A program made the translations under genes and the position numbers. Under the pieces are notes generated by a model. It was not told the origin of the DNA. It saw nothing but the letters and a program-made list of their open reading frames with translations, and did no database searches. From Nitrososphaerota archaeon (GTDB lineage Archaea > Thermoproteota > Nitrososphaeria_A > Caldarchaeales > Calditenuaceae), in assembly GCA_041641295.1 (NCBI GenBank), contig JBEPYO010000001.1:704001-768000 (forward strand): 64,000 nt of DNA, in the 5' to 3' direction. Below, in pieces: positions 11,928 to 62,442 of the stretch; within the stretch, counting starts at the first letter, position 1, and each line of letters starts with the position of its first letter.

Positions 11928-12683
11928 ATGTTTACTATGAGGCTTCCCAACGCAGATTACGCTGCAGACCTCTTTAAGGCGGTAGCCGCAGTAGTTGACG
12001 AGGCCTCATTCAAGGTTACTCAGGACTCGTTAAGGCTCGTGTCTATGGATCCCGCGCATGTGAGTCTTGTAGACTTTGAGCTGAGGAAGGAGGCCGCAGA
12101 GGAGTTCGTGGCAGACAAGGAGACGGAGCTGACAGTCAACCTTCAGGAGCTGCTCAAATTCCTCAAAAGGGCGAAGAAGGGCGAGTCACTGACACTCGTC
12201 TACGAGGAGGAGAAGAGGAAGCTGAACATAATACTGACAGACCCGACCAAGTCGCGGGAGAGGAGGTACCAGCTCAACACCCTCGAGCCCGTAGCCGGTA
12301 CTAGCGCCTCTCCCAAGCTAGTCTTCGAGGCTAGGGCGAGGGTAAACTCTGAGGCACTGTGGGAGGCCGTCGAGGACGCAAGCCTAGTCTCAGACTCTGT
12401 CAAGATAATCATCCAGCCCTCCGCTGTGATATTGATGGCTAAAGGCGACATGGGAGTGGTTGAGAACAAGCTCTCAAGGGATGGCGCGCTAGTGTATGAG
12501 GTGGAGGCCCCCCACGAGGTTGTAGCAAGCTTCAGCCTCGCCTACCTAGAGCGGATAGTCAAGCCGGGGCGGGACTTATCCGAGGAGACGCTCATACAGC
12601 TTAGCAGCAACAAGCCGATAAAGCTGACCTTCACTCTTCCCGCAGGCAGGCTTGAATACCTCATAGCGCCTAGGCTGGAGTGA
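11928..12683 (+). CDS. pcn: DNA polymerase sliding clamp PCNA
   Basis: SMDPAHVSLVDF, FSLAYL, YLIAPRLE; preceded by SD-like GGGGAG. Confidence 0.96.
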   Translation: MFTMRLPNADYAADLFKAVAAVVDEASFKVTQDSLRLVSMDPAHVSLVDFELRKEAAEEFVADKETELTVNLQELLKFLKRAKKGESLTLVYEEEKRKLNIILTDPTKSRERRYQLNTLEPVAGTSASPKLVFEARARVNSEALWEAVEDASLVSDSVKIIIQPSAVILMAKGDMGVVENKLSRDGALVYEVEAPHEVVASFSLAYLERIVKPGRDLSEETLIQLSSNKPIKLTFTLPAGRLEYLIAPRLE

Positions 12684-12799: not shown

Positions 12800-13498
12800 G
12801 TGAGCAGAGACCAGCCGGGTGAGCGGGAGGTAGCCAAGCAGGCTGATAGGCCTTCTGAGAGTGATTTTGCGAGGGACATTAACGCGCTAGTGGAGAGGCT
12901 AGCAGAGGTACTGGGCCAGTCTCTCAGGGACCAGCTCTCCAAGATTGGGGCTAAGCTCATAGACATGCATCAGAGAGGGCTTGTTAAGATCAACCATTCC
13001 GTAATGGAGGTTATCTGTGCGGGCCACTTGGCGAGGCTGGGATACGAGGTGGACGTGGAGAGGTATCTCGGCGATGCGCTCGTCTGCGACGTCTTTGGCG
13101 AGAGGGGAGGTAGCACCCAGATCATCGAGATAGAAACTGGCTTCGCCCCGCCCGAGGCCGCCCTCGACCCCCAGAGGTATCTACGGGCACGCGTGGTTAG
13201 CAAGGTTGCGCGATATAGCAAATATGCAGACAAGTTCAGCCTAGCAACACCCCGCTACAACGTGCTAGAGATCCCGGAGCCCCTATTAAAGCCGCCGAGG
13301 CTTAGAGAGGCTGGAGAAGTAGAGTCGCTGAAGAGGCTCTGCGACATCTACTACAGCAGACCACCCATCCAGATAGACGAGCTGCGCAACTGCAGAATAC
13401 ACTCCATAATAGTCATCAACATCGACGATCTCGAGATGATAGAATATTCGCCGGAACAGTATTACGAGAAAGTCCTCAGACACGTGTTGGCTCCGTAA
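12800..13498 (+). CDS. Conserved hypothetical protein, PD-(D/E)XK nuclease-like fold
   Basis: GYEVDVE...CDVFG...IIEIETG resembles the restriction-endonuclease-like core. Confidence 0.55.
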   Translation: MSRDQPGEREVAKQADRPSESDFARDINALVERLAEVLGQSLRDQLSKIGAKLIDMHQRGLVKINHSVMEVICAGHLARLGYEVDVERYLGDALVCDVFGERGGSTQIIEIETGFAPPEAALDPQRYLRARVVSKVARYSKYADKFSLATPRYNVLEIPEPLLKPPRLREAGEVESLKRLCDIYYSRPPIQIDELRNCRIHSIIVINIDDLEMIEYSPEQYYEKVLRHVLAP

Positions 13499-13502
13499 AA
13501 TA

Positions 13503-13687
13503 GGTGGGGCGCCTTTCGGGGAGGGCGCGCGACGTGCGTGTTAGACCCCTAGGCCCCACGCACACCGTGAGCACCATCCCCAATCTCTTTGCCCACGGTT
13601 TCCCGATGGGTCCACGAGACTGGAGATTCCTCGAGACGCCAGGCTATCCTGACGCCTCTTGGATCTCCCCTGTCCCGGGCGCCCCGC
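13503..13687 (-). ncRNA. Putative ~185-nt structured ncRNA (four-way junction), family unrecognised
   Basis: Terminal stem 13678-13685/13506-13513 and three long arms; many G-U pairs valid only on the minus strand; TTTATATA at 13717-13710; TATTTT just downstream. Confidence 0.75.
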
Positions 13688-13709
13688 TGCATAGGAAACT
13701 AGGGTCTCC

Positions 13710-13717
13710 TATATAAA
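13710..13717 (-). promoter_or_regulatory. TATA box for the putative ncRNA
   Basis: TTTATATA on the minus strand, about 23 nt before the terminal stem. Confidence 0.6.
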
Positions 13718-13758
13718 CGTTTGCATCAACTTATTTAGAATAATACGCAATTATTACT

Positions 13759-16056
13759 TCAAGCCGGCTTTACGGGTTTTTCTCGTATTATTCGCCAAAT
13801 CTGGTAGGGTGTTAGCGGCGTATCCACTACCCTGACGCCGAGTGGCGCCAGCGCATCCTCGACAGCGTTTACCACCGCCTGCGTCAAGCCAATTGTCGCG
13901 GCCTCCCCGACACCTTTAGCCCCTAACGGGTTAGGAGCAGGTGTCTCGGTCCTCTCCGTCAGGATTTCAGGTATCTCCACAGCGGTGGGGATGAGGTAGT
14001 CTCCGAAGTTGGAGTTGACGAGGTTTCCGTCGCTGTCGTAGAAGGCCTCCTCGTAGAGGGCCTGGGCTAGTGCTTGGACTGCTCCACCAATCACCTGCCC
14101 CTCCACCAGAAGCGGGTTAACAACCCTTCCACAGTCATCGACAAGCACTAGCCTCTTCACCTCCACCCTACCCGTCTCCGTATCTATCTCGACCACCGCC
14201 ACATGCGTCCCAAACGGATACGTCAGCTGCGGACTGTAGCCCGCCTCCGCTGACAGCCCGGGTTCCATACCCGCAGGCAGTGCCGAAGGGTCATACGCTA
14301 GGGCGGCGACCTCCTTGATCGTCACGGACTTCTCTGGGACACCCTTCACGCGAGCCTTCCCATCAACAAGCTCTAAGTCCTCCGGCCTGGCCTCCAGCAT
14401 ATGAGCCGCAAGCCTCAGTATCTTTTCTCTCACCTTCATAGAGGCTTGTAGGACCGCGTTACCGCCAGAAGCCAGCGTCCAGCTACCGGCCGTCCCAGGT
14501 CCCCATCCGATCAGAGAAGTATCACCAAATATTACGTCGACATCCTTTATGTCCACGCCCAGTGCGTCAGCGGCTATCTGTGCGAAGGCGGTCTCCTCAC
14601 CCTGACCATGTGGCAGCGTTCCAGAAATCACTTTAACCCTGCCATCCTTCTCCACACTCACTATAGCAGGAGTGGGAGCAAAGTTACATACCTCGATGTA
14701 GCTTGAGATTCCTATTCCCAACAGCTTGCCCACCGCCCTCAGCTCGGACTGTTTTCGCCTAAGCTCCTCATAGCCCACAATCTCGAGCGCCTTGTTAAGA
14801 GCCTGCTCATAGTTCCCAGAGTCATACTTGTGACCGGTTATAGTCTCGTAGGGGAACTCATCCGGCCTGATGAAATTCCTTCTCCTAACCTCCGCAGGAT
14901 CGATTCCCAGCTCCCTCGCAATCCTATCCATAGTCCGCTCAATTATGTATGAGGCCTCTGGCCTACCCGCGCCCCTATACGCCGCGGTTGGAACTTTATT
15001 GGTGAAGACACCGGTGACCTCGGCCTCCAAGCCCTTCAGCTTATAGCAACCCGGCAGCATTCCGACAATCCCCTCAGGAACCTGTATCGTAGAGAAGTAT
15101 GGATAAGCGCCGAGATCCGTCAAGATTCTAGCCCTAACCCCGAGAAGCCGGCCATCACTCTTCACAGCCGCCTCGACCCAAGCAGCAGTACCCCGCCCAT
15201 GAGTTGTAGTGTGGAAGTTCTCACTACGCGTCTCAATCCACTTTATAGGCCGCCCAAGAAGTTTGGCCAAGAGAGGGATCACAACATCTTCAGGATAGTG
15301 CTCAAGTTTCGAGCCAAAGGCCCCGCCTATGTCTGGTGCTATAACCTGAATCTTAGACTCAGGTATTCCAAGGGCCTCTGCAGTCCAGCTGCGAAAGTCG
15401 TGTGGGAACTGCTTAGTGGCCCAGATCCTCAGGTAACCGACCCCCTCGTCAAAAACCGCCACCACTCCGCGACACTCCATCGCAGCGGGGACAAGCCTCT
15501 GTATTCTCAGCTGGACATCGACGACCCTGTCGGCCTCCCTGAAGGCCGCCTCGGCATCACCATAGACACGCTTCCTTGTGAAGCAGACATTGTCTGGGAA
15601 GTCATCATGTATGACAGGCGCGCCAGGCCTAGAAGCTTCAAGTGGGTCTACAACCGGCTCAAGCCTCTCGTAATCCACGCTGATGTATTCTAGAGCGTCC
15701 CGCGCCGTGTAGGGGTCGTTAGCCACTACAACTGCAACAGGCTCGCCAACATACCTAACCTTTCCCTCCGCGAGAGGTTTAACCACAAAACCCCTCCGCC
15801 CCCGCGGTACATCCACATGTATACCACCACACATCTTGTTAAGCTCCTCGCCTGTGAAGGCGGCCACCGCGCCATTTTGAAGTGCACCAGACACATCGAT
15901 ACTAGTTATTCTCGCGTGGGCGAATGGGCTCCTAAGAAAGGCCGCATAAAGCATTCGCGGGATACTTATATCATCTATGTATCTTCCCCTCCCGGTTAAA
16001 AACCTCAGATCCTCCTTTCGCGGGATGGGCTTACCAACGTAGGTCGCTGACTGCAC
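13759..16056 (-). CDS. Xanthine-dehydrogenase-family molybdopterin large subunit (CoxL form II/CutA-like)
   Basis: GGAFGSK, AYRGAGRPE, HGQGEET, GAKGVGEA motifs. Confidence 0.9.
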   Translation of the reverse strand: MQSATYVGKPIPRKEDLRFLTGRGRYIDDISIPRMLYAAFLRSPFAHARITSIDVSGALQNGAVAAFTGEELNKMCGGIHVDVPRGRRGFVVKPLAEGKVRYVGEPVAVVVANDPYTARDALEYISVDYERLEPVVDPLEASRPGAPVIHDDFPDNVCFTRKRVYGDAEAAFREADRVVDVQLRIQRLVPAAMECRGVVAVFDEGVGYLRIWATKQFPHDFRSWTAEALGIPESKIQVIAPDIGGAFGSKLEHYPEDVVIPLLAKLLGRPIKWIETRSENFHTTTHGRGTAAWVEAAVKSDGRLLGVRARILTDLGAYPYFSTIQVPEGIVGMLPGCYKLKGLEAEVTGVFTNKVPTAAYRGAGRPEASYIIERTMDRIARELGIDPAEVRRRNFIRPDEFPYETITGHKYDSGNYEQALNKALEIVGYEELRRKQSELRAVGKLLGIGISSYIEVCNFAPTPAIVSVEKDGRVKVISGTLPHGQGEETAFAQIAADALGVDIKDVDVIFGDTSLIGWGPGTAGSWTLASGGNAVLQASMKVREKILRLAAHMLEARPEDLELVDGKARVKGVPEKSVTIKEVAALAYDPSALPAGMEPGLSAEAGYSPQLTYPFGTHVAVVEIDTETGRVEVKRLVLVDDCGRVVNPLLVEGQVIGGAVQALAQALYEEAFYDSDGNLVNSNFGDYLIPTAVEIPEILTERTETPAPNPLGAKGVGEAATIGLTQAVVNAVEDALAPLGVRVVDTPLTPYQIWRIIREKPVKPA

Positions 16057-52791: not shown

Positions 52792-52876
52792 GCGGGGGTC
52801 GCCAAGCCTGGTCAAAGGCGCAGGGCTTAGGACCCTGTCCCGTAGGGGTTCGTGGGTTCAAATCCCACCCCCCGCA
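52792..52876 (+). tRNA. tRNA-Leu(TAG)
   Basis: GCGGGGG/CCCCCGC acceptor stem, CAGGG-CTTAGGA-CCCTG anticodon arm, long variable arm, GGTTCAAATCC T-arm. Confidence 0.97.
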
Positions 52877-62369: not shown

Positions 62370-62442
62370 GCCCCGGTAGCTCAGCTGGGAGAGCGCCCGG
62401 CTGAAGACCGGGAAGTCGTGGGTTCGAGTCCCACCCGGGGCA
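62370..62442 (+). tRNA. tRNA-Phe(GAA)
   Basis: GCCCCGG/CCGGGGC acceptor stem, CCCGG-CTGAAGA-CCGGG anticodon arm, GGTTCGAGTCC T-arm. Confidence 0.97.

What the first reader, a model, noticed from the sequence alone, without database searches (positions are those of the whole stretch)
13503..13717. Unannotated ~185-nt four-way-junction ncRNA with its own promoter
Seen on the minus strand: closing stem GGGGCGCC/GGCGCCCC (13685-13678/13513-13506) and GGGGAG/CUCCCC, then three arms meeting with almost no unpaired nucleotides. Arm 1 is UCC-AA-GAGGCGUCAGG-AUAG-CCUGGCGUCUC-GA-GGA. Arm 2 is a 12-bp AUCUCCAGUCUC/GAGAUUGGGGAU stem capped by CCCAUCGG-GAAA-CCGUGGG (GNRA tetraloop). Arm 3 is GGUGC-UCA-CGGUGUGCGUG...CACGCACGUCG-C-GCGCC. 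Many pairs are G-U on the minus strand and would be A-C mismatches on plus, which points to selection at the RNA level. TTTATATA lies about 23 nt upstream and TATTTT just downstream. I cannot match it to tRNA, SRP, RNase P, C/D or H/ACA RNA. Inference: a stand-alone archaeal ncRNA class that may be undescribed.
Basis: partly seen in the sequence, partly recalled or inferred. Interest (0 to 1): 0.85.

Follow-up and report, generated by a model that had tools for sequence, protein, structure and literature searches.

The report
New archaeal RNA paired with nuclease
This is a real gene for a ~180-base, tightly folded non-coding RNA of a family found in no catalogue searched, and in heat-loving relatives of the ammonia-oxidising archaea it sits almost always beside the gene of an uncharacterised nuclease-like protein, which suggests an unknown RNA-protein machine.

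Summary
Window 13506-13685 (minus strand) folds as described: closing stem, asymmetric loop, second stem, four-way junction (MFE -114.7 kcal/mol, z -7.3). It has a conserved TATA box 24 nt upstream and a T-run downstream. It is single-copy and matches no Rfam 15 family. RNase P RNA and SRP RNA lie elsewhere in the genome.

Homologues of 174-230 nt show heavy compensatory change (53 of 67 pairs). They occur in Caldarchaeia (Calditenuaceae, which is the window's family, and Wolframiiraptoraceae). They also occur in a Nitrosocaldus-like family (label recalled), one further family, and metagenome contigs. The shared core is P1 / 5'-CGRNANA...GAAN-3' loop / P2 / three arms.

New here: the RNA gene lies at the 3' end, convergent or co-directional, of a conserved ~210-230-aa gene (window 12800-13498). 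That protein has no Pfam, NCBIfam or PADLOC hit. Its predicted fold is PD-(D/E)xK nuclease-like, and it is predicted to form a homodimer. In the class, 43 of 48 genomes with the protein have the RNA, and 0 of 28 without it do.

Best reading: a trans-acting RNA partner of this nuclease-like protein. Binding and function are inferred, not shown, and no expression data could be obtained.

The parts
13506..13685 (-). ncRNA gene, 180 nt (P1 to P1')
   Evidence: MFE fold z -7.26. CM hit of 207.6 bits to R1, a model built from this and six congeneric sequences, so a match by construction. Covariation. Single copy.
13710..13717 (-). TATA box TTTATATA, 24 nt upstream of the RNA 5' end
   Evidence: TTATATA is invariant in 7 of 7 congeners. 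Family-wide A/T peak of 0.81-0.93 at -30..-26, still 0.74 and 0.71 at -25 and -24; a TATA-like octamer in 53 of 69 members against 333 of 1380 random positions.
13497..13502 (-). T-run (TATTTT) just 3' of the RNA, a likely archaeal terminator; it overlaps the stop codon region of the convergent gene
   Evidence: A run of T4 or more lies within 20 nt downstream in 37 of 69 family members, against 60 of 1380 controls.
13678..13685 (-). P1 5' strand GGGGCGCC (pairs with 13506-13513)
   Evidence: Of 8 P1 pairs, 6 show changes on both sides across 14 sequences.
13671..13677 (-). 5' side of the conserved asymmetric internal loop, CGGGACA (family consensus CGRNANA)
   Evidence: Six of seven positions are invariant in 7 congeners. 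Consensus from 58 parsed members.
13514..13517 (-). 3' side of the internal loop, GAAA (family consensus GAAN)
13665..13670 (-). P2 5' strand GGGGAG (pairs with CUCCCC at 13518-13523)
13628..13663 (-). Arm 1 hairpin (tip GG-NNNR-CCU conserved in the family)
   Evidence: Of 14 pairs, 11 have compensatory change. Tips compared.
13576..13627 (-). Arm 2: 12-bp stem, internal loop, GAAA-capped tip. The tip block, written from the alignment as GACCCAnCGGGAnACCGUGGGCnAAG, is nearly invariant in the genus (3 variable positions).
13524..13575 (-). Arm 3: stem with the invariant tip GUGGGGCCUAGGGGUCUAACAC
12800..13498 (+). Linked gene 'orf232': a conserved uncharacterised protein with predicted PD-(D/E)xK nuclease fold, convergent with the RNA; its stop lies 8 nt from the RNA 3' end
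   Evidence: No Pfam, NCBIfam or PADLOC family. Fold. Linkage and co-occurrence. Predicted homodimer.
13759..16056 (-). Context only: molybdopterin-binding oxidoreductase large subunit (aldehyde oxidase/xanthine dehydrogenase family), upstream of the RNA on the same strand
   Evidence: Pfam MoCoBD_1, MoCoBD_2 and Ald_Xan_dh_C. It neighbours the RNA only in genera g1 and g2.

Best explanation
Window 13506-13685 (minus strand) is a stand-alone gene for a ~180-nt structured non-coding RNA. It is transcribed from its own archaeal TATA promoter and ends at a T-run.

It belongs to an uncatalogued RNA family of 174-230 nt. The family has a fixed architecture:
- closing stem P1;
- an A-rich asymmetric internal loop (5'-CGRNANA-3' opposite 5'-GAAN-3');
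- stem P2;
- a four-way junction carrying three hairpin arms.

The RNA most likely works in trans as the dedicated partner of the protein encoded next to it. That protein (orf232) is a conserved, predicted homodimeric PD-(D/E)xK-fold nuclease-like protein specific to Nitrososphaeria and their relatives. Together they would form a ribonucleoprotein in which the RNA controls or equips the nuclease as scaffold, regulator or specificity subunit.

Shown: the RNA gene, its structure, its conservation, its promoter and terminator signals, the gene linkage and the co-occurrence.

Inferred: transcription, physical binding, and any effect on nuclease activity.
For: RNA gene and structure
- Fold z -7.26.
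- 13 of 67 pairs compensatory within the genus; 53 of 67 across three genera.
- 62 of 69 collected homologues fold, unconstrained, into one closing stem plus a three-branch multiloop.
- Conserved TATA-like element and T-run.
- 1-2-nt indels among congeners exclude a conserved reading frame.
- Single copy.

Not a known family
- Rfam 15 gives nothing at the locus or in 10 diverse members.
- RNase P RNA (156 bits) and SRP RNA (132 bits) are elsewhere in the genome.
- ARAGORN finds nothing.

Linkage
- In 6 of 7 g1 loci, orf232 lies in the locus with the RNA (L046 is the exception). In the window they are convergent, with the stop 8 nt from the RNA 3' end.
- The same convergent pair is seen in g4.
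- It is seen in all 15 Wolframiiraptoraceae genomes hit by the model (coordinates; orf232 homology 44-50% identity).
- It is seen in 13 of 16 further orf232 loci searched without filters.
- In 24 of 80 metagenome loci the RNA starts 44 nt inside to 71 nt beyond the end of the orf232 reading frame. Of the 23 found by descriptor, 14 are convergent and 9 co-directional; one more (L222) is convergent by the model.
- In the Nitrosocaldus-like family f53 the RNA is co-directional about 100 nt downstream.
- No other protein neighbour recurs in more than 11 of 80 loci.
- PCNA adjacency is limited to 5 loci.

Co-occurrence in the class
- The protein is in 48 of 76 genomes.
- The RNA was found in 43 of those 48 and in 0 of the 28 without the protein.

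Trans action
- In Calditenuis (g2), in G001 and in G373 the RNA is unlinked yet conserved.

Protein
- AlphaFold model pLDDT 87.8.
- VIA-align Z 9.2 to XisH (2okf) and to 3dnx, 8.4 to AF1548, 6.7 to NucS, plus many restriction enzymes; Foldseek is consistent.
- D97, E110, E112 and K135 are invariant and E70 nearly so, also in ammonia-oxidiser-like genomes.
- Predicted homodimer score 0.83, best of 3 controls 0.09. That mark was reached by 20 of 30 solved homodimers and 1 of 23 solved monomers. The runs agree in at least 98% of contacts, and partner pLDDT is at least 93.
Against: - No expression data, and no binding test is possible with these tools.
- orf232 is much more widespread than the RNA I could find. 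It is in 139 of 301 sampled genomes of the phylum.
- 20 loci from other families have no adjacent RNA; 4 of the 9 downstream gaps read there carry a small Cys-rich ORF and 2 a small ORF that looks GIY-YIG-like (motif recalled).
- 12 loci with distant homologues also show none. The 5 f20 loci and L361 run straight into a convergent ORF.
- Three g5 genomes have the protein but no RNA was found.
- About 55 of 80 metagenome loci show no adjacent RNA by my descriptor or model.

The protein may therefore work without the RNA, or the RNA may be unlinked and too diverged for my model. The model misses a known positive control.

The RNA shows no obvious two-fold symmetry to match a dimer, and no free guide-like segment.
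Confidence: 0.6

Rival explanations
1. An orphan structured RNA whose function has nothing to do with orf232. Candidates include a ligand-binding RNA, a ribozyme, or a partner of another protein. On this reading the adjacency is only inherited gene order.
For: The RNA stays conserved where it is unlinked from orf232: Calditenuis g2 in 5 of 7 genomes and G373. orf232 exists without a detectable adjacent RNA in many lineages. Strongly conserved loops and junction would also suit a ligand pocket or active site.
Against: The adjacency survived orientation flips (14 convergent and 9 co-directional) and complete turnover of all other neighbours. It spans at least three families in two classes. In the class, 0 of 28 genomes lacking orf232 have the RNA.
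Confidence: 0.22
2. An RNA decoy or antitoxin-like inhibitor. The four-way-junction RNA would mimic a branched nucleic-acid substrate and hold the nuclease dimer inactive. This would be analogous in logic to type III toxin-antitoxin pairs or to 6S RNA mimicry. It is a special case of the best explanation.
For: A nearly perfect four-helix junction in the window's RNA, with 1/0/0/0 unpaired junction nucleotides. The partner has the fold of structure-specific nucleases and is a predicted dimer. The two genes are tightly linked.
Against: The module is vertically inherited, single-copy and near-universal within whole families, unlike mobile toxin-antitoxin modules. There is no PADLOC hit and no viral relative. 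The RNA is not made of repeats. Hjc-type resolvases are not among the top 50 fold matches. The junction is not perfect in other lineages.
Confidence: 0.12
3. The guide RNA of an RNA-guided nuclease, arranged like TnpB or IscB with their omega RNAs.
For: The RNA gene sits at or just beyond the 3' end of a nuclease-like gene. It is co-directional in 9 metagenome loci and in f53. Its size is similar to omega RNAs (recalled).
Against: The 5' and 3' ends are paired in P1, with no variable or free guide segment. It has its own promoter and is convergent in most lineages. It is single-copy with no transposon ends or repeats. The protein is a 210-230-aa PD-(D/E)xK fold, not RuvC/HNH.
Confidence: 0.03
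4. A cis-acting element of orf232. Possibilities are an antisense regulator through convergent read-through, a structured 3' UTR, or a terminator insulator between convergent genes.
For: The RNA 3' end is 8 nt from the orf232 stop in the window, and within tens of nt in most lineages.
Against: Both orientations occur. The RNA has its own conserved TATA box and T-run. It is conserved when unlinked. Its size and sequence conservation far exceed what a terminator needs.
Confidence: 0.03

Closest known systems
Type T (minimal) and archaeal RNase P RNA (Rfam RF02357, RF00373)
   Same: A structured archaeal RNA of about 200 nt, single-copy, GC-rich. A closing stem leads to a multi-helix core. It would work with protein partners.
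   Different: The genome has a canonical RNase P RNA elsewhere (156 bits, full length). RF02357 and RF00373 give nothing at this locus. I saw no P4-type conserved strands by eye; that motif knowledge is recalled.
TnpB/IscB omega RNAs and other nuclease-linked scaffold RNAs
   Same: A structured RNA of 150-250 nt encoded next to, often at the 3' end of, the gene of a small nuclease.
   Different: There is no guide segment, no transposon context, and it is single-copy and vertically inherited. It has its own promoter and is mostly convergent. The protein fold is PD-(D/E)xK, not RuvC/HNH.
Type III toxin-antitoxin systems (ToxIN type)
   Same: A nuclease gene paired with a dedicated structured RNA gene.
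   Different: The RNA is not a tandem repeat array and is not in one operon upstream of the nuclease. The module is not patchy or mobile. No hit in PADLOC. The protein fold differs; the ToxN fold is recalled.
Y RNA / YrlA with Ro60 (Rsr)
   Same: A non-coding RNA closed by a terminal stem with a conserved internal loop, plus a multi-helix module, acting as the partner of one protein (recalled).
   Different: No Rfam Y-RNA or YrlA hit. The neighbouring protein is a PD-(D/E)xK fold, not a TROVE ring. I did not test whether a Ro60 homologue exists in the genome.
Orphan structured RNAs of hyperthermophilic archaea (HgcC, SscA and similar Rfam families)
   Same: GC-rich, stand-alone, promoter-bearing RNAs of unknown function found by structure and composition.
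   Different: No similarity to any of them by Rfam 15. This family has a defined, conserved protein-gene partner.
XisH / SPO1766 / AF1548 / NucS group of PD-(D/E)xK proteins (for the linked protein)
   Same: Best structural matches: Z 9.2, 9.2, 8.4 and 6.7 over about 100-113 residues. An acidic active-site pattern lies on the matching strands (D97, E110, E112).
   Different: No sequence-level relation by Pfam, NCBIfam or PDB profile. There is an extra N-terminal helical hairpin. None of those proteins is known to me to have an RNA partner (recalled).

Membership tests
Archaeal RNase P RNA (RF00373) / type T (RF02357) | Match to the family covariance model; one RNase P RNA per genome | tested here: not met
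   The locus gives no hit at E up to 10. RF00373 matches G000:C1:549082-549380 at 156 bits. The best RF02357 hits are 13.2 and 11.1 bits, both elsewhere.
Archaeal SRP RNA (RF01857) | Match to the covariance model | tested here: not met
   The SRP RNA is at C1:1255109-1255423 (132 bits). Nothing at the locus.
tRNA / tRNA-like (cloverleaf four-way junction) | Detection by ARAGORN or Rfam tRNA; canonical D and T loops | tested here: not met
   ARAGORN finds 0 genes in 13300-13900. Rfam tRNA hits lie only at 52792-52876 and 62370-62442.
K-turn / L7Ae-binding sRNAs (box C/D, H/ACA) | A 3-nt bulge followed by tandem sheared G.A/A.G pairs with G at position 1b (feature recalled); C/D or ACA boxes | tested here: not met
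   The loop consensus CGRNANA / GAAN puts a variable base or A where the invariant G is needed, in every register I tried. There is no Rfam C/D or H/ACA hit. This rests on inspection only.
Riboswitch or other cis-regulatory leader | Lies in the 5' UTR of a regulated gene on the same strand | tested here: not met
   In the window and most lineages, the next gene downstream is convergent. The RNA is followed by a T-run.
MITE or other repeat element | Many genomic copies, terminal inverted repeats with target-site duplications | tested here: not met
   There is one full-length copy in the 1.56-Mb genome. The other 5 matches are 14-18 nt. There is one copy per genome in 30 of 30 positive genomes.
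Type III toxin-antitoxin | Tandem-repeat RNA antitoxin upstream of and co-transcribed with an endoribonuclease toxin; patchy, mobile distribution | tested here: not met
   No repeats and a separate promoter, mostly convergent. Near-universal within families. No PADLOC hit.
OMEGA-type guide RNA (TnpB/IscB) | Scaffold plus a variable guide at one end; transposon-encoded RuvC nuclease | tested here: not met
   The ends are paired in P1. The protein has a PD-(D/E)xK fold. It is single-copy.
PD-(D/E)xK nuclease superfamily (linked protein orf232) | An alpha-beta-beta-beta-alpha-beta core with acidic residues on strands 2 and 3 and a lysine | tested here: inconclusive
   The predicted core is helix 64-79, strands 83-89, 95-102 and 105-111, helix 124-142 and strand 145-151. 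D97, E110, E112 and K135 are invariant. Fold matches reach Z 9.2 or less and Foldseek E is 3e-3 or weaker. The usual lysine of the (D/E)xK triad is replaced by E112. No sequence family matches. Activity is untested.
The new RNA family itself (working definition) | P1, a 7/4 loop (CGRNANA / GAAN), P2, three arms, 174-230 nt, own TATA box | tested here: met
   The window RNA scores 182 bits with model R3. It parses as P1 of 8 bp, CGGGACA / GAAA, and P2 of 6 bp. It folds with three arms. The TATA box is at -32 to -25.

The most novel reading that the evidence does not exclude
The RNA and orf232 form a previously unknown kind of ribonucleoprotein nuclease that is ancestral to Nitrososphaeria (Caldarchaeia, thermophilic ammonia oxidisers and relatives). 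In it, a four-way-junction RNA is an obligatory subunit of a PD-(D/E)xK dimer. It would either supply substrate recognition or gate the enzyme by mimicking a branched nucleic acid. Diverged, unlinked versions of the RNA would await discovery in the globally abundant mesophilic ammonia-oxidising archaea, which keep the protein with all its invariant residues.
Probability: 0.3. Interest if true: 0.9.

Novelty: categorically new. Interest (0 to 1): 0.8.

Why it matters
Structured non-coding RNAs with their own genes are few in archaea. Almost all known ones (rRNA, tRNA, RNase P, SRP, guide sRNAs, CRISPR RNAs) were found decades ago. This is a large, strongly covarying RNA class with a clear architecture and a specific genetic partner. 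The partner is a protein family of at least 4697 database proteins and 238 clusters at 50% identity. Every source name in the 120 rows listed reads 'hypothetical' or 'uncharacterized', and none has a Pfam domain.

The protein is conserved across Nitrososphaeria, including genomes that look like ammonia oxidisers, which matter for the global nitrogen cycle. If the two act together, this would be, to my knowledge (recalled), the first RNA-dependent enzyme or RNA-regulated nuclease built on the PD-(D/E)xK fold. It would also give a direct handle on a conserved gene of unknown function.

The idea is directly testable. Enrichment or pure cultures exist for Calditenuis and Wolframiiraptor (abstracts seen). 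Both components are small enough for in-vitro reconstitution and structural work.

Tried and rejected
Known families
- Rfam 15 was run at gathering and E-value thresholds on the window and on 10 diverse homologues. Only tRNAs and chance hits appeared.
- RNase P, type T RNase P and SRP models were run on the whole genome. The real genes are elsewhere.
- ARAGORN found nothing.
- A K-turn reading of the 7/4 loop was rejected by inspection against the family consensus.

Coding reading
- The overlapping ORFs 13504-13716 (+) and 13549-13692 (-) have no Pfam hit (the + ORF was tested).
- The congeners differ by 1-2-nt indels.
- The 65-aa minus-strand ORF 13286-13483 is only the antisense frame of orf232. 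It is 46-83% conserved, against 75-96% for orf232.

Model sensitivity
- Model R1 (genus only) found nothing outside the genus.
- MAFFT could not align genera structurally.
- Whole-genome searches with R3 score only 17-35 candidates per genome. They missed g9 and 7 g15 genomes that a filter-free search then found.
- R3 also misses the positive control G349. The blank for the rest of the phylum (one weak 28-bit partial hit in G176, not followed) is therefore uninformative.
- The 'class' search returned the same 76 genomes as 'order'.

Descriptor limits
- Pattern searches in 10 model-negative genomes gave only chance-level hits that failed the stem filter. Six hits had no locus and were not examined.
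- My loosest descriptor has a background of 25 hits per 3.1 Mb in the own genome at -0.36 kcal/mol per nt. It is therefore evidence only together with position next to orf232 and the much lower energies. Family median is -0.58; the window RNA is -0.63.

Lineages without an adjacent RNA
- Ammonia-oxidiser-like loci have no adjacent RNA.
- The f20 family with distant homologues (Sulfolobaceae-like; guessed from genome sizes, not named by any search) has none either.
- The arm-3 pattern over 401 genomes was mostly chance, apart from f53 (3 of 3) and G373.

Other neighbours
- PCNA adjacency, which would have hinted at a replication role, holds in only 5 loci of one genus.
- No other protein cluster occurs in more than 11 of 80 loci. 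Clusters 1-3 were antisense frames of orf232 itself.

Protein family
- No hit in NCBIfam, PADLOC or Pfam, including 10 distant members. No significant PHROG hit (best E 5e-4 over 32 residues). No PDB sequence match.
- The ESM Atlas gave only 'hypothetical protein' clusters, plus a 0.87 lead to PDDEXK_14 on 10% of one viral cluster.
- Viral contigs: 0 of 38 pattern matches confirmed.

Expression
- No RNA holder was listed for window 12800-14400.

Literature
- Five full-text searches turned up no description of this RNA or protein: 'Wolframiiraptor'; 'Aigarchaeota' + 'non-coding RNA'; 'Thaumarchaeota/structured/ncRNA/covariation'; 'archaea' + 'novel ncRNA' + 'four-way junction'; 'Nitrososphaerota/small RNA/conserved secondary structure'. 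I saw listings and abstracts only.
- In PMC12979851 I ran a term search of the main text. 'non-coding', 'ncRNA', 'small RNA' and 'nuclease' each occur 0 times.
- Supplementary files were not consulted and might list expressed intergenic regions.
Full report
**1. The observation**

On the minus strand, window 13506-13685 reads GGGGCGCC-CGGGACA-GGGGAG-[three hairpins]-CUCCCC-GAAA-GGCGCCCC.

It gives closing stem P1, a 7-nt/4-nt internal loop, stem P2, and a four-way junction. The arms meet with one unpaired nucleotide in total.
- MFE is -114.7 kcal/mol.
- The shuffles average -80.4 +/- 4.7, z = -7.26, and 0 of 200 fold as well.
- The plus strand folds less well (-95.9, z -5.2).

TTTATATA lies at 13717-13710, 24 nt before the first G. 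TATTTT lies at 13502-13497, just after the last C.

The element sits in a 260-nt gap between two convergent genes:
- a 232-codon ORF with no known domain (12800-13498, plus strand; 'orf232' below);
- a molybdopterin-binding oxidoreductase subunit (13759-16056, minus strand).

**2. It is not a catalogued RNA**

- Rfam 15 at gathering thresholds finds two tRNAs elsewhere in the window and nothing at the locus.
- In E-value mode the best of three hits at the locus is E 0.11, at 22 bits against a 47.4-bit cut-off.
- The genome has its RNase P RNA at C1:549082-549380 (156 bits) and its SRP RNA at C1:1255109-1255423 (132 bits).
- The type T RNase P model gives only 13-bit noise.
- ARAGORN finds no tRNA.
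- The element is single-copy. The five other BLAST matches in the 1.56-Mb genome are 14-18 nt long. It is therefore not a repeat element.

**3. Conservation and covariation**

BLAST finds full-length homologues at 74-94% identity in 6 of 7 congeneric genomes. Their alignment shows several things:
- an invariant TTATATA at the same distance upstream;
- a T-rich tail;
- a nearly invariant arm-2 tip block and an invariant arm-3 tip block;
- indels of 1-2 nt, which rule out a conserved reading frame.

RNAalifold predicts 67 pairs, and 13 of them show compensatory changes.

A pattern built on the P1-proximal loop then revealed diverged homologues in two more genera of the family. Iterated covariance models R1 to R3 aligned 14 sequences from three genera.
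- Of pair cells, 94.9% are paired, against 68.1% in shuffles.
- 53 of 67 pairs changed on both sides (0 of 500 shuffles reach this).
- Slid controls give 13-21 such pairs.
- The alignment is fitted to the model, which favours the structure. The margin is large all the same.

**4. Distribution**

R3 finds one copy each in 30 of 76 genomes of the class, which equals one order here. Filter-free searches of selected loci add 13 more.

Record titles of identical or near-identical RNAs name the groups:
- The window's family contains Candidatus Calditenuis. RNA identity is 100% and 98% to two genomes of genus g2.
- The other positive family contains Candidatus Terraquivivens (99%).

The window therefore lies in Calditenuaceae, and the second family is Wolframiiraptoraceae, both in Caldarchaeia. 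The family name of Terraquivivens is recalled.

The third large family of the class gives no hit in 17 of 18 genomes. The exception is G041, a 350-contig assembly with a 2.8-kb contig.

Outside the class:
- Family f53 is Nitrosocaldus-like. This is my inference from a 1.58-Mb single-contig, A+T-rich genome, and the name is recalled. It carries a 221-nt version in 3 of 3 sampled genomes.
- One 2.7-Mb genome of family f55 has a version.
- Metagenome contigs add groups of 210-231 nt.

In all, 69 members of 174-230 nt were collected. Of these, 62 fold, unconstrained, into one closing stem plus a three-branch multiloop. Ten diverse members give no Rfam hit.

R3 misses the f53 positive control. The family's true range in the phylum is therefore unknown.

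**5. Anatomy of the family**

The constant part is as follows:
- P1 of 6-12 bp;
- loop 5'-C-G-R-N-A-N-A-3' opposite 5'-G-A-A-N-3';
- P2 beginning with G-G or G-A.

Arm 1 ends in a small hairpin of the form GG-NNNR-CCU (for example GGGGGAAGCCUC). Arm 2 often ends in a GNRA loop. In many lineages arm 3 has a symmetric A-rich 3x3 loop.

The loop does not fit a K-turn, because the position that must be G is variable or A. This rests on inspection, and the K-turn rule is recalled.

Upstream, the A/T fraction peaks at 0.81-0.93 from -30 to -26, falls to 0.71 by -24, and drops to 0.36-0.49 from -22 to -18.
- A TATA-like octamer is present in 53 of 69 members, against 333 of 1380 random positions.
- A run of four or more T follows within 20 nt in 37 of 69, against 60 of 1380.

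These are the signals of an independent archaeal transcription unit.

**6. The linked protein gene**

In the genus, the gene order is PCNA, orf232, RNA, oxidoreductase. Only one neighbour is kept beyond the genus, and that is orf232.
- Its homologues (44-50% identity) lie convergent to the RNA in all 15 Wolframiiraptoraceae genomes hit by R3.
- The same holds in 13 of 16 further loci, in g4 and in G041.
- Among 80 metagenome loci chosen only for encoding orf232, the RNA starts 44 nt inside to 71 nt beyond the end of the orf232 reading frame in 24. Of the 23 found by descriptor, 14 are convergent and 9 co-directional. One more (L222) is convergent by the model.
- In f53 the RNA is co-directional, about 100 nt downstream, with its own TATA box.
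- No other protein cluster recurs in more than 11 of the 80 loci.
- PCNA is adjacent in only 5 loci.

Within the class, orf232 is present in 48 of 76 genomes.
- The RNA was found in 43 of these 48.
- It was not found in G018 and three g5 genomes, and G057 was not examined.
- It was found in 0 of the 28 genomes without orf232.

In Calditenuis, in G001 and in G373 the two genes are unlinked yet both are kept. This argues that the RNA acts in trans.

**7. What the protein is**

- No Pfam, NCBIfam or PADLOC family, no significant PHROG family, and no PDB sequence relative.
- Ten distant members also have no Pfam family.
- The family comprises at least 4697 database proteins. Every source name in the 120 rows listed reads 'hypothetical' or 'uncharacterized', mostly from Nitrososphaerota.
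- It comprises 238 clusters at 50% identity; the 150 listed are 60-286 aa.
- No relative was found in viral contigs.

The AlphaFold model (pLDDT 87.8) has an N-terminal helical hairpin and an alpha-beta-beta-beta-alpha-beta core. The best structural matches are PD-(D/E)xK proteins:
- XisH 2okf, Z 9.2;
- 3dnx, Z 9.2;
- AF1548, Z 8.4;
- NucS, Z 6.7;
- many restriction enzymes, Can2 and CdiA-CT.

These Z values are moderate, so the fold assignment is probable, not certain.

D97, E110, E112 and K135 are invariant and E70 is nearly so, also in ammonia-oxidiser-like genomes.

A symmetric homodimer is predicted:
- score 0.83, with the best of 3 controls at 0.09;
- that mark was reached by 20 of 30 solved homodimers and 1 of 23 solved monomers;
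- the runs agree in at least 98% of contacts, and partner pLDDT is at least 93;
- the interface uses the invariant KIN, ETGF, ALDP and TPxxN blocks.

**8. Interpretation**

The RNA is a real, independently transcribed, trans-acting structured RNA of a new family. I hold this with high confidence, although transcription itself is inferred.

The persistent pairing with orf232 spans orientation flips, neighbour turnover and at least two classes, and it comes with one-way co-occurrence. It is best explained by a functional partnership, most simply a ribonucleoprotein of the RNA with the nuclease-like dimer.

I cannot decide whether the RNA is a scaffold or specificity subunit, or a decoy that gates the enzyme, perhaps by mimicking a branched substrate. 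A guide-RNA role is unlikely, because both ends are locked in P1 and nothing is variable.

The main caveat is that the protein is far more widespread than the RNA I could detect.
- It is in 139 of 301 sampled genomes of the phylum.
- There is no adjacent RNA in 20 loci of other families or in 12 loci with distant homologues.

Either the RNA is unlinked and too diverged for my tools there, or the protein works without it.

**9. Limits**

- No RNA-seq run could be listed.
- Only three covariance models were allowed.
- Supplementary files were not read.
- Five literature searches and one in-paper term search found no prior description.

Noticed in passing
window 52792-52876 (+) and 62370-62442 (+): Two tRNA genes (Rfam 56.5 and 71.5 bits). 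The first is 85 nt long against a 71-position model, so it may carry an intron or a long variable arm.
   Followed up: no
window 11928-12683 (+): A PCNA gene lies directly upstream of orf232. The adjacency holds in only 5 loci of the genus, so it is probably not functional linkage.
   Followed up: yes
L082/L085 (genus g2, Candidatus Calditenuis), about 1501-1677: In Calditenuis the RNA gene is inverted relative to the oxidoreductase gene (convergent instead of downstream on the same strand). orf232 has moved to another locus. This is a local rearrangement that split the pair.
   Followed up: partly
L086 / L191 (G041 contig C46, 2.8 kb): The only genome of family f4 with the RNA-orf232 pair is a 350-contig, 81%-complete assembly. 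Its RNA is closest to the window's genus type. This could be bin contamination or a transfer, and it was not resolved.
   Followed up: no
L297-L300 (family f5, A+T-rich genomes of about 1.6 Mb), about 100-300 nt after orf232: Four of the nine downstream gaps read carry a conserved small cysteine-rich ORF beginning MIC(A/G)ACE directly downstream of orf232, at the place where the RNA sits in thermophiles; L296 has a similar one beginning MICSSCE.
   Followed up: no
L305, L306 (family f14), downstream of orf232: A small ORF that looks GIY-YIG-like (motif recalled; no family search was run), with YVYIL/YVYIM followed by G-YYTGYT, follows orf232. This would be a second nuclease-type gene at the position otherwise taken by the RNA.
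   Followed up: no
L244, L259, L266, L271, L288, L295 (metagenome loci), 270-311 nt after orf232: In these six loci a gene of a shared cluster (170-230 codons stop to stop; cluster 10, 7 loci in all) begins 270-311 nt downstream, and the stretch between reads as a small hydrophobic ORF with a conserved G-P-[IV]-P motif rather than an RNA.
   Followed up: no
G000:C1:532662-532894 (+), outside the window: My loose descriptor also picked a 233-nt stretch folding at -122.7 kcal/mol. It lies near a weak type T RNase P model hit at 531470-531507. It may be part of another structured RNA (possibly rRNA) and was not examined.
   Followed up: no
L104 (G176:C1:537571-537698, minus strand): The only R3 hit outside the class in the phylum sample: 28.4 bits, partial (model positions 17-167), E 0.005. 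It may be chance or a distant relative.
   Followed up: no
G063:C26:64040-64372: A second, broken copy of orf232 (1 TGA and 1 TAG inside, residues 56-167 only) sits in one Wolframiiraptoraceae genome.
   Followed up: no
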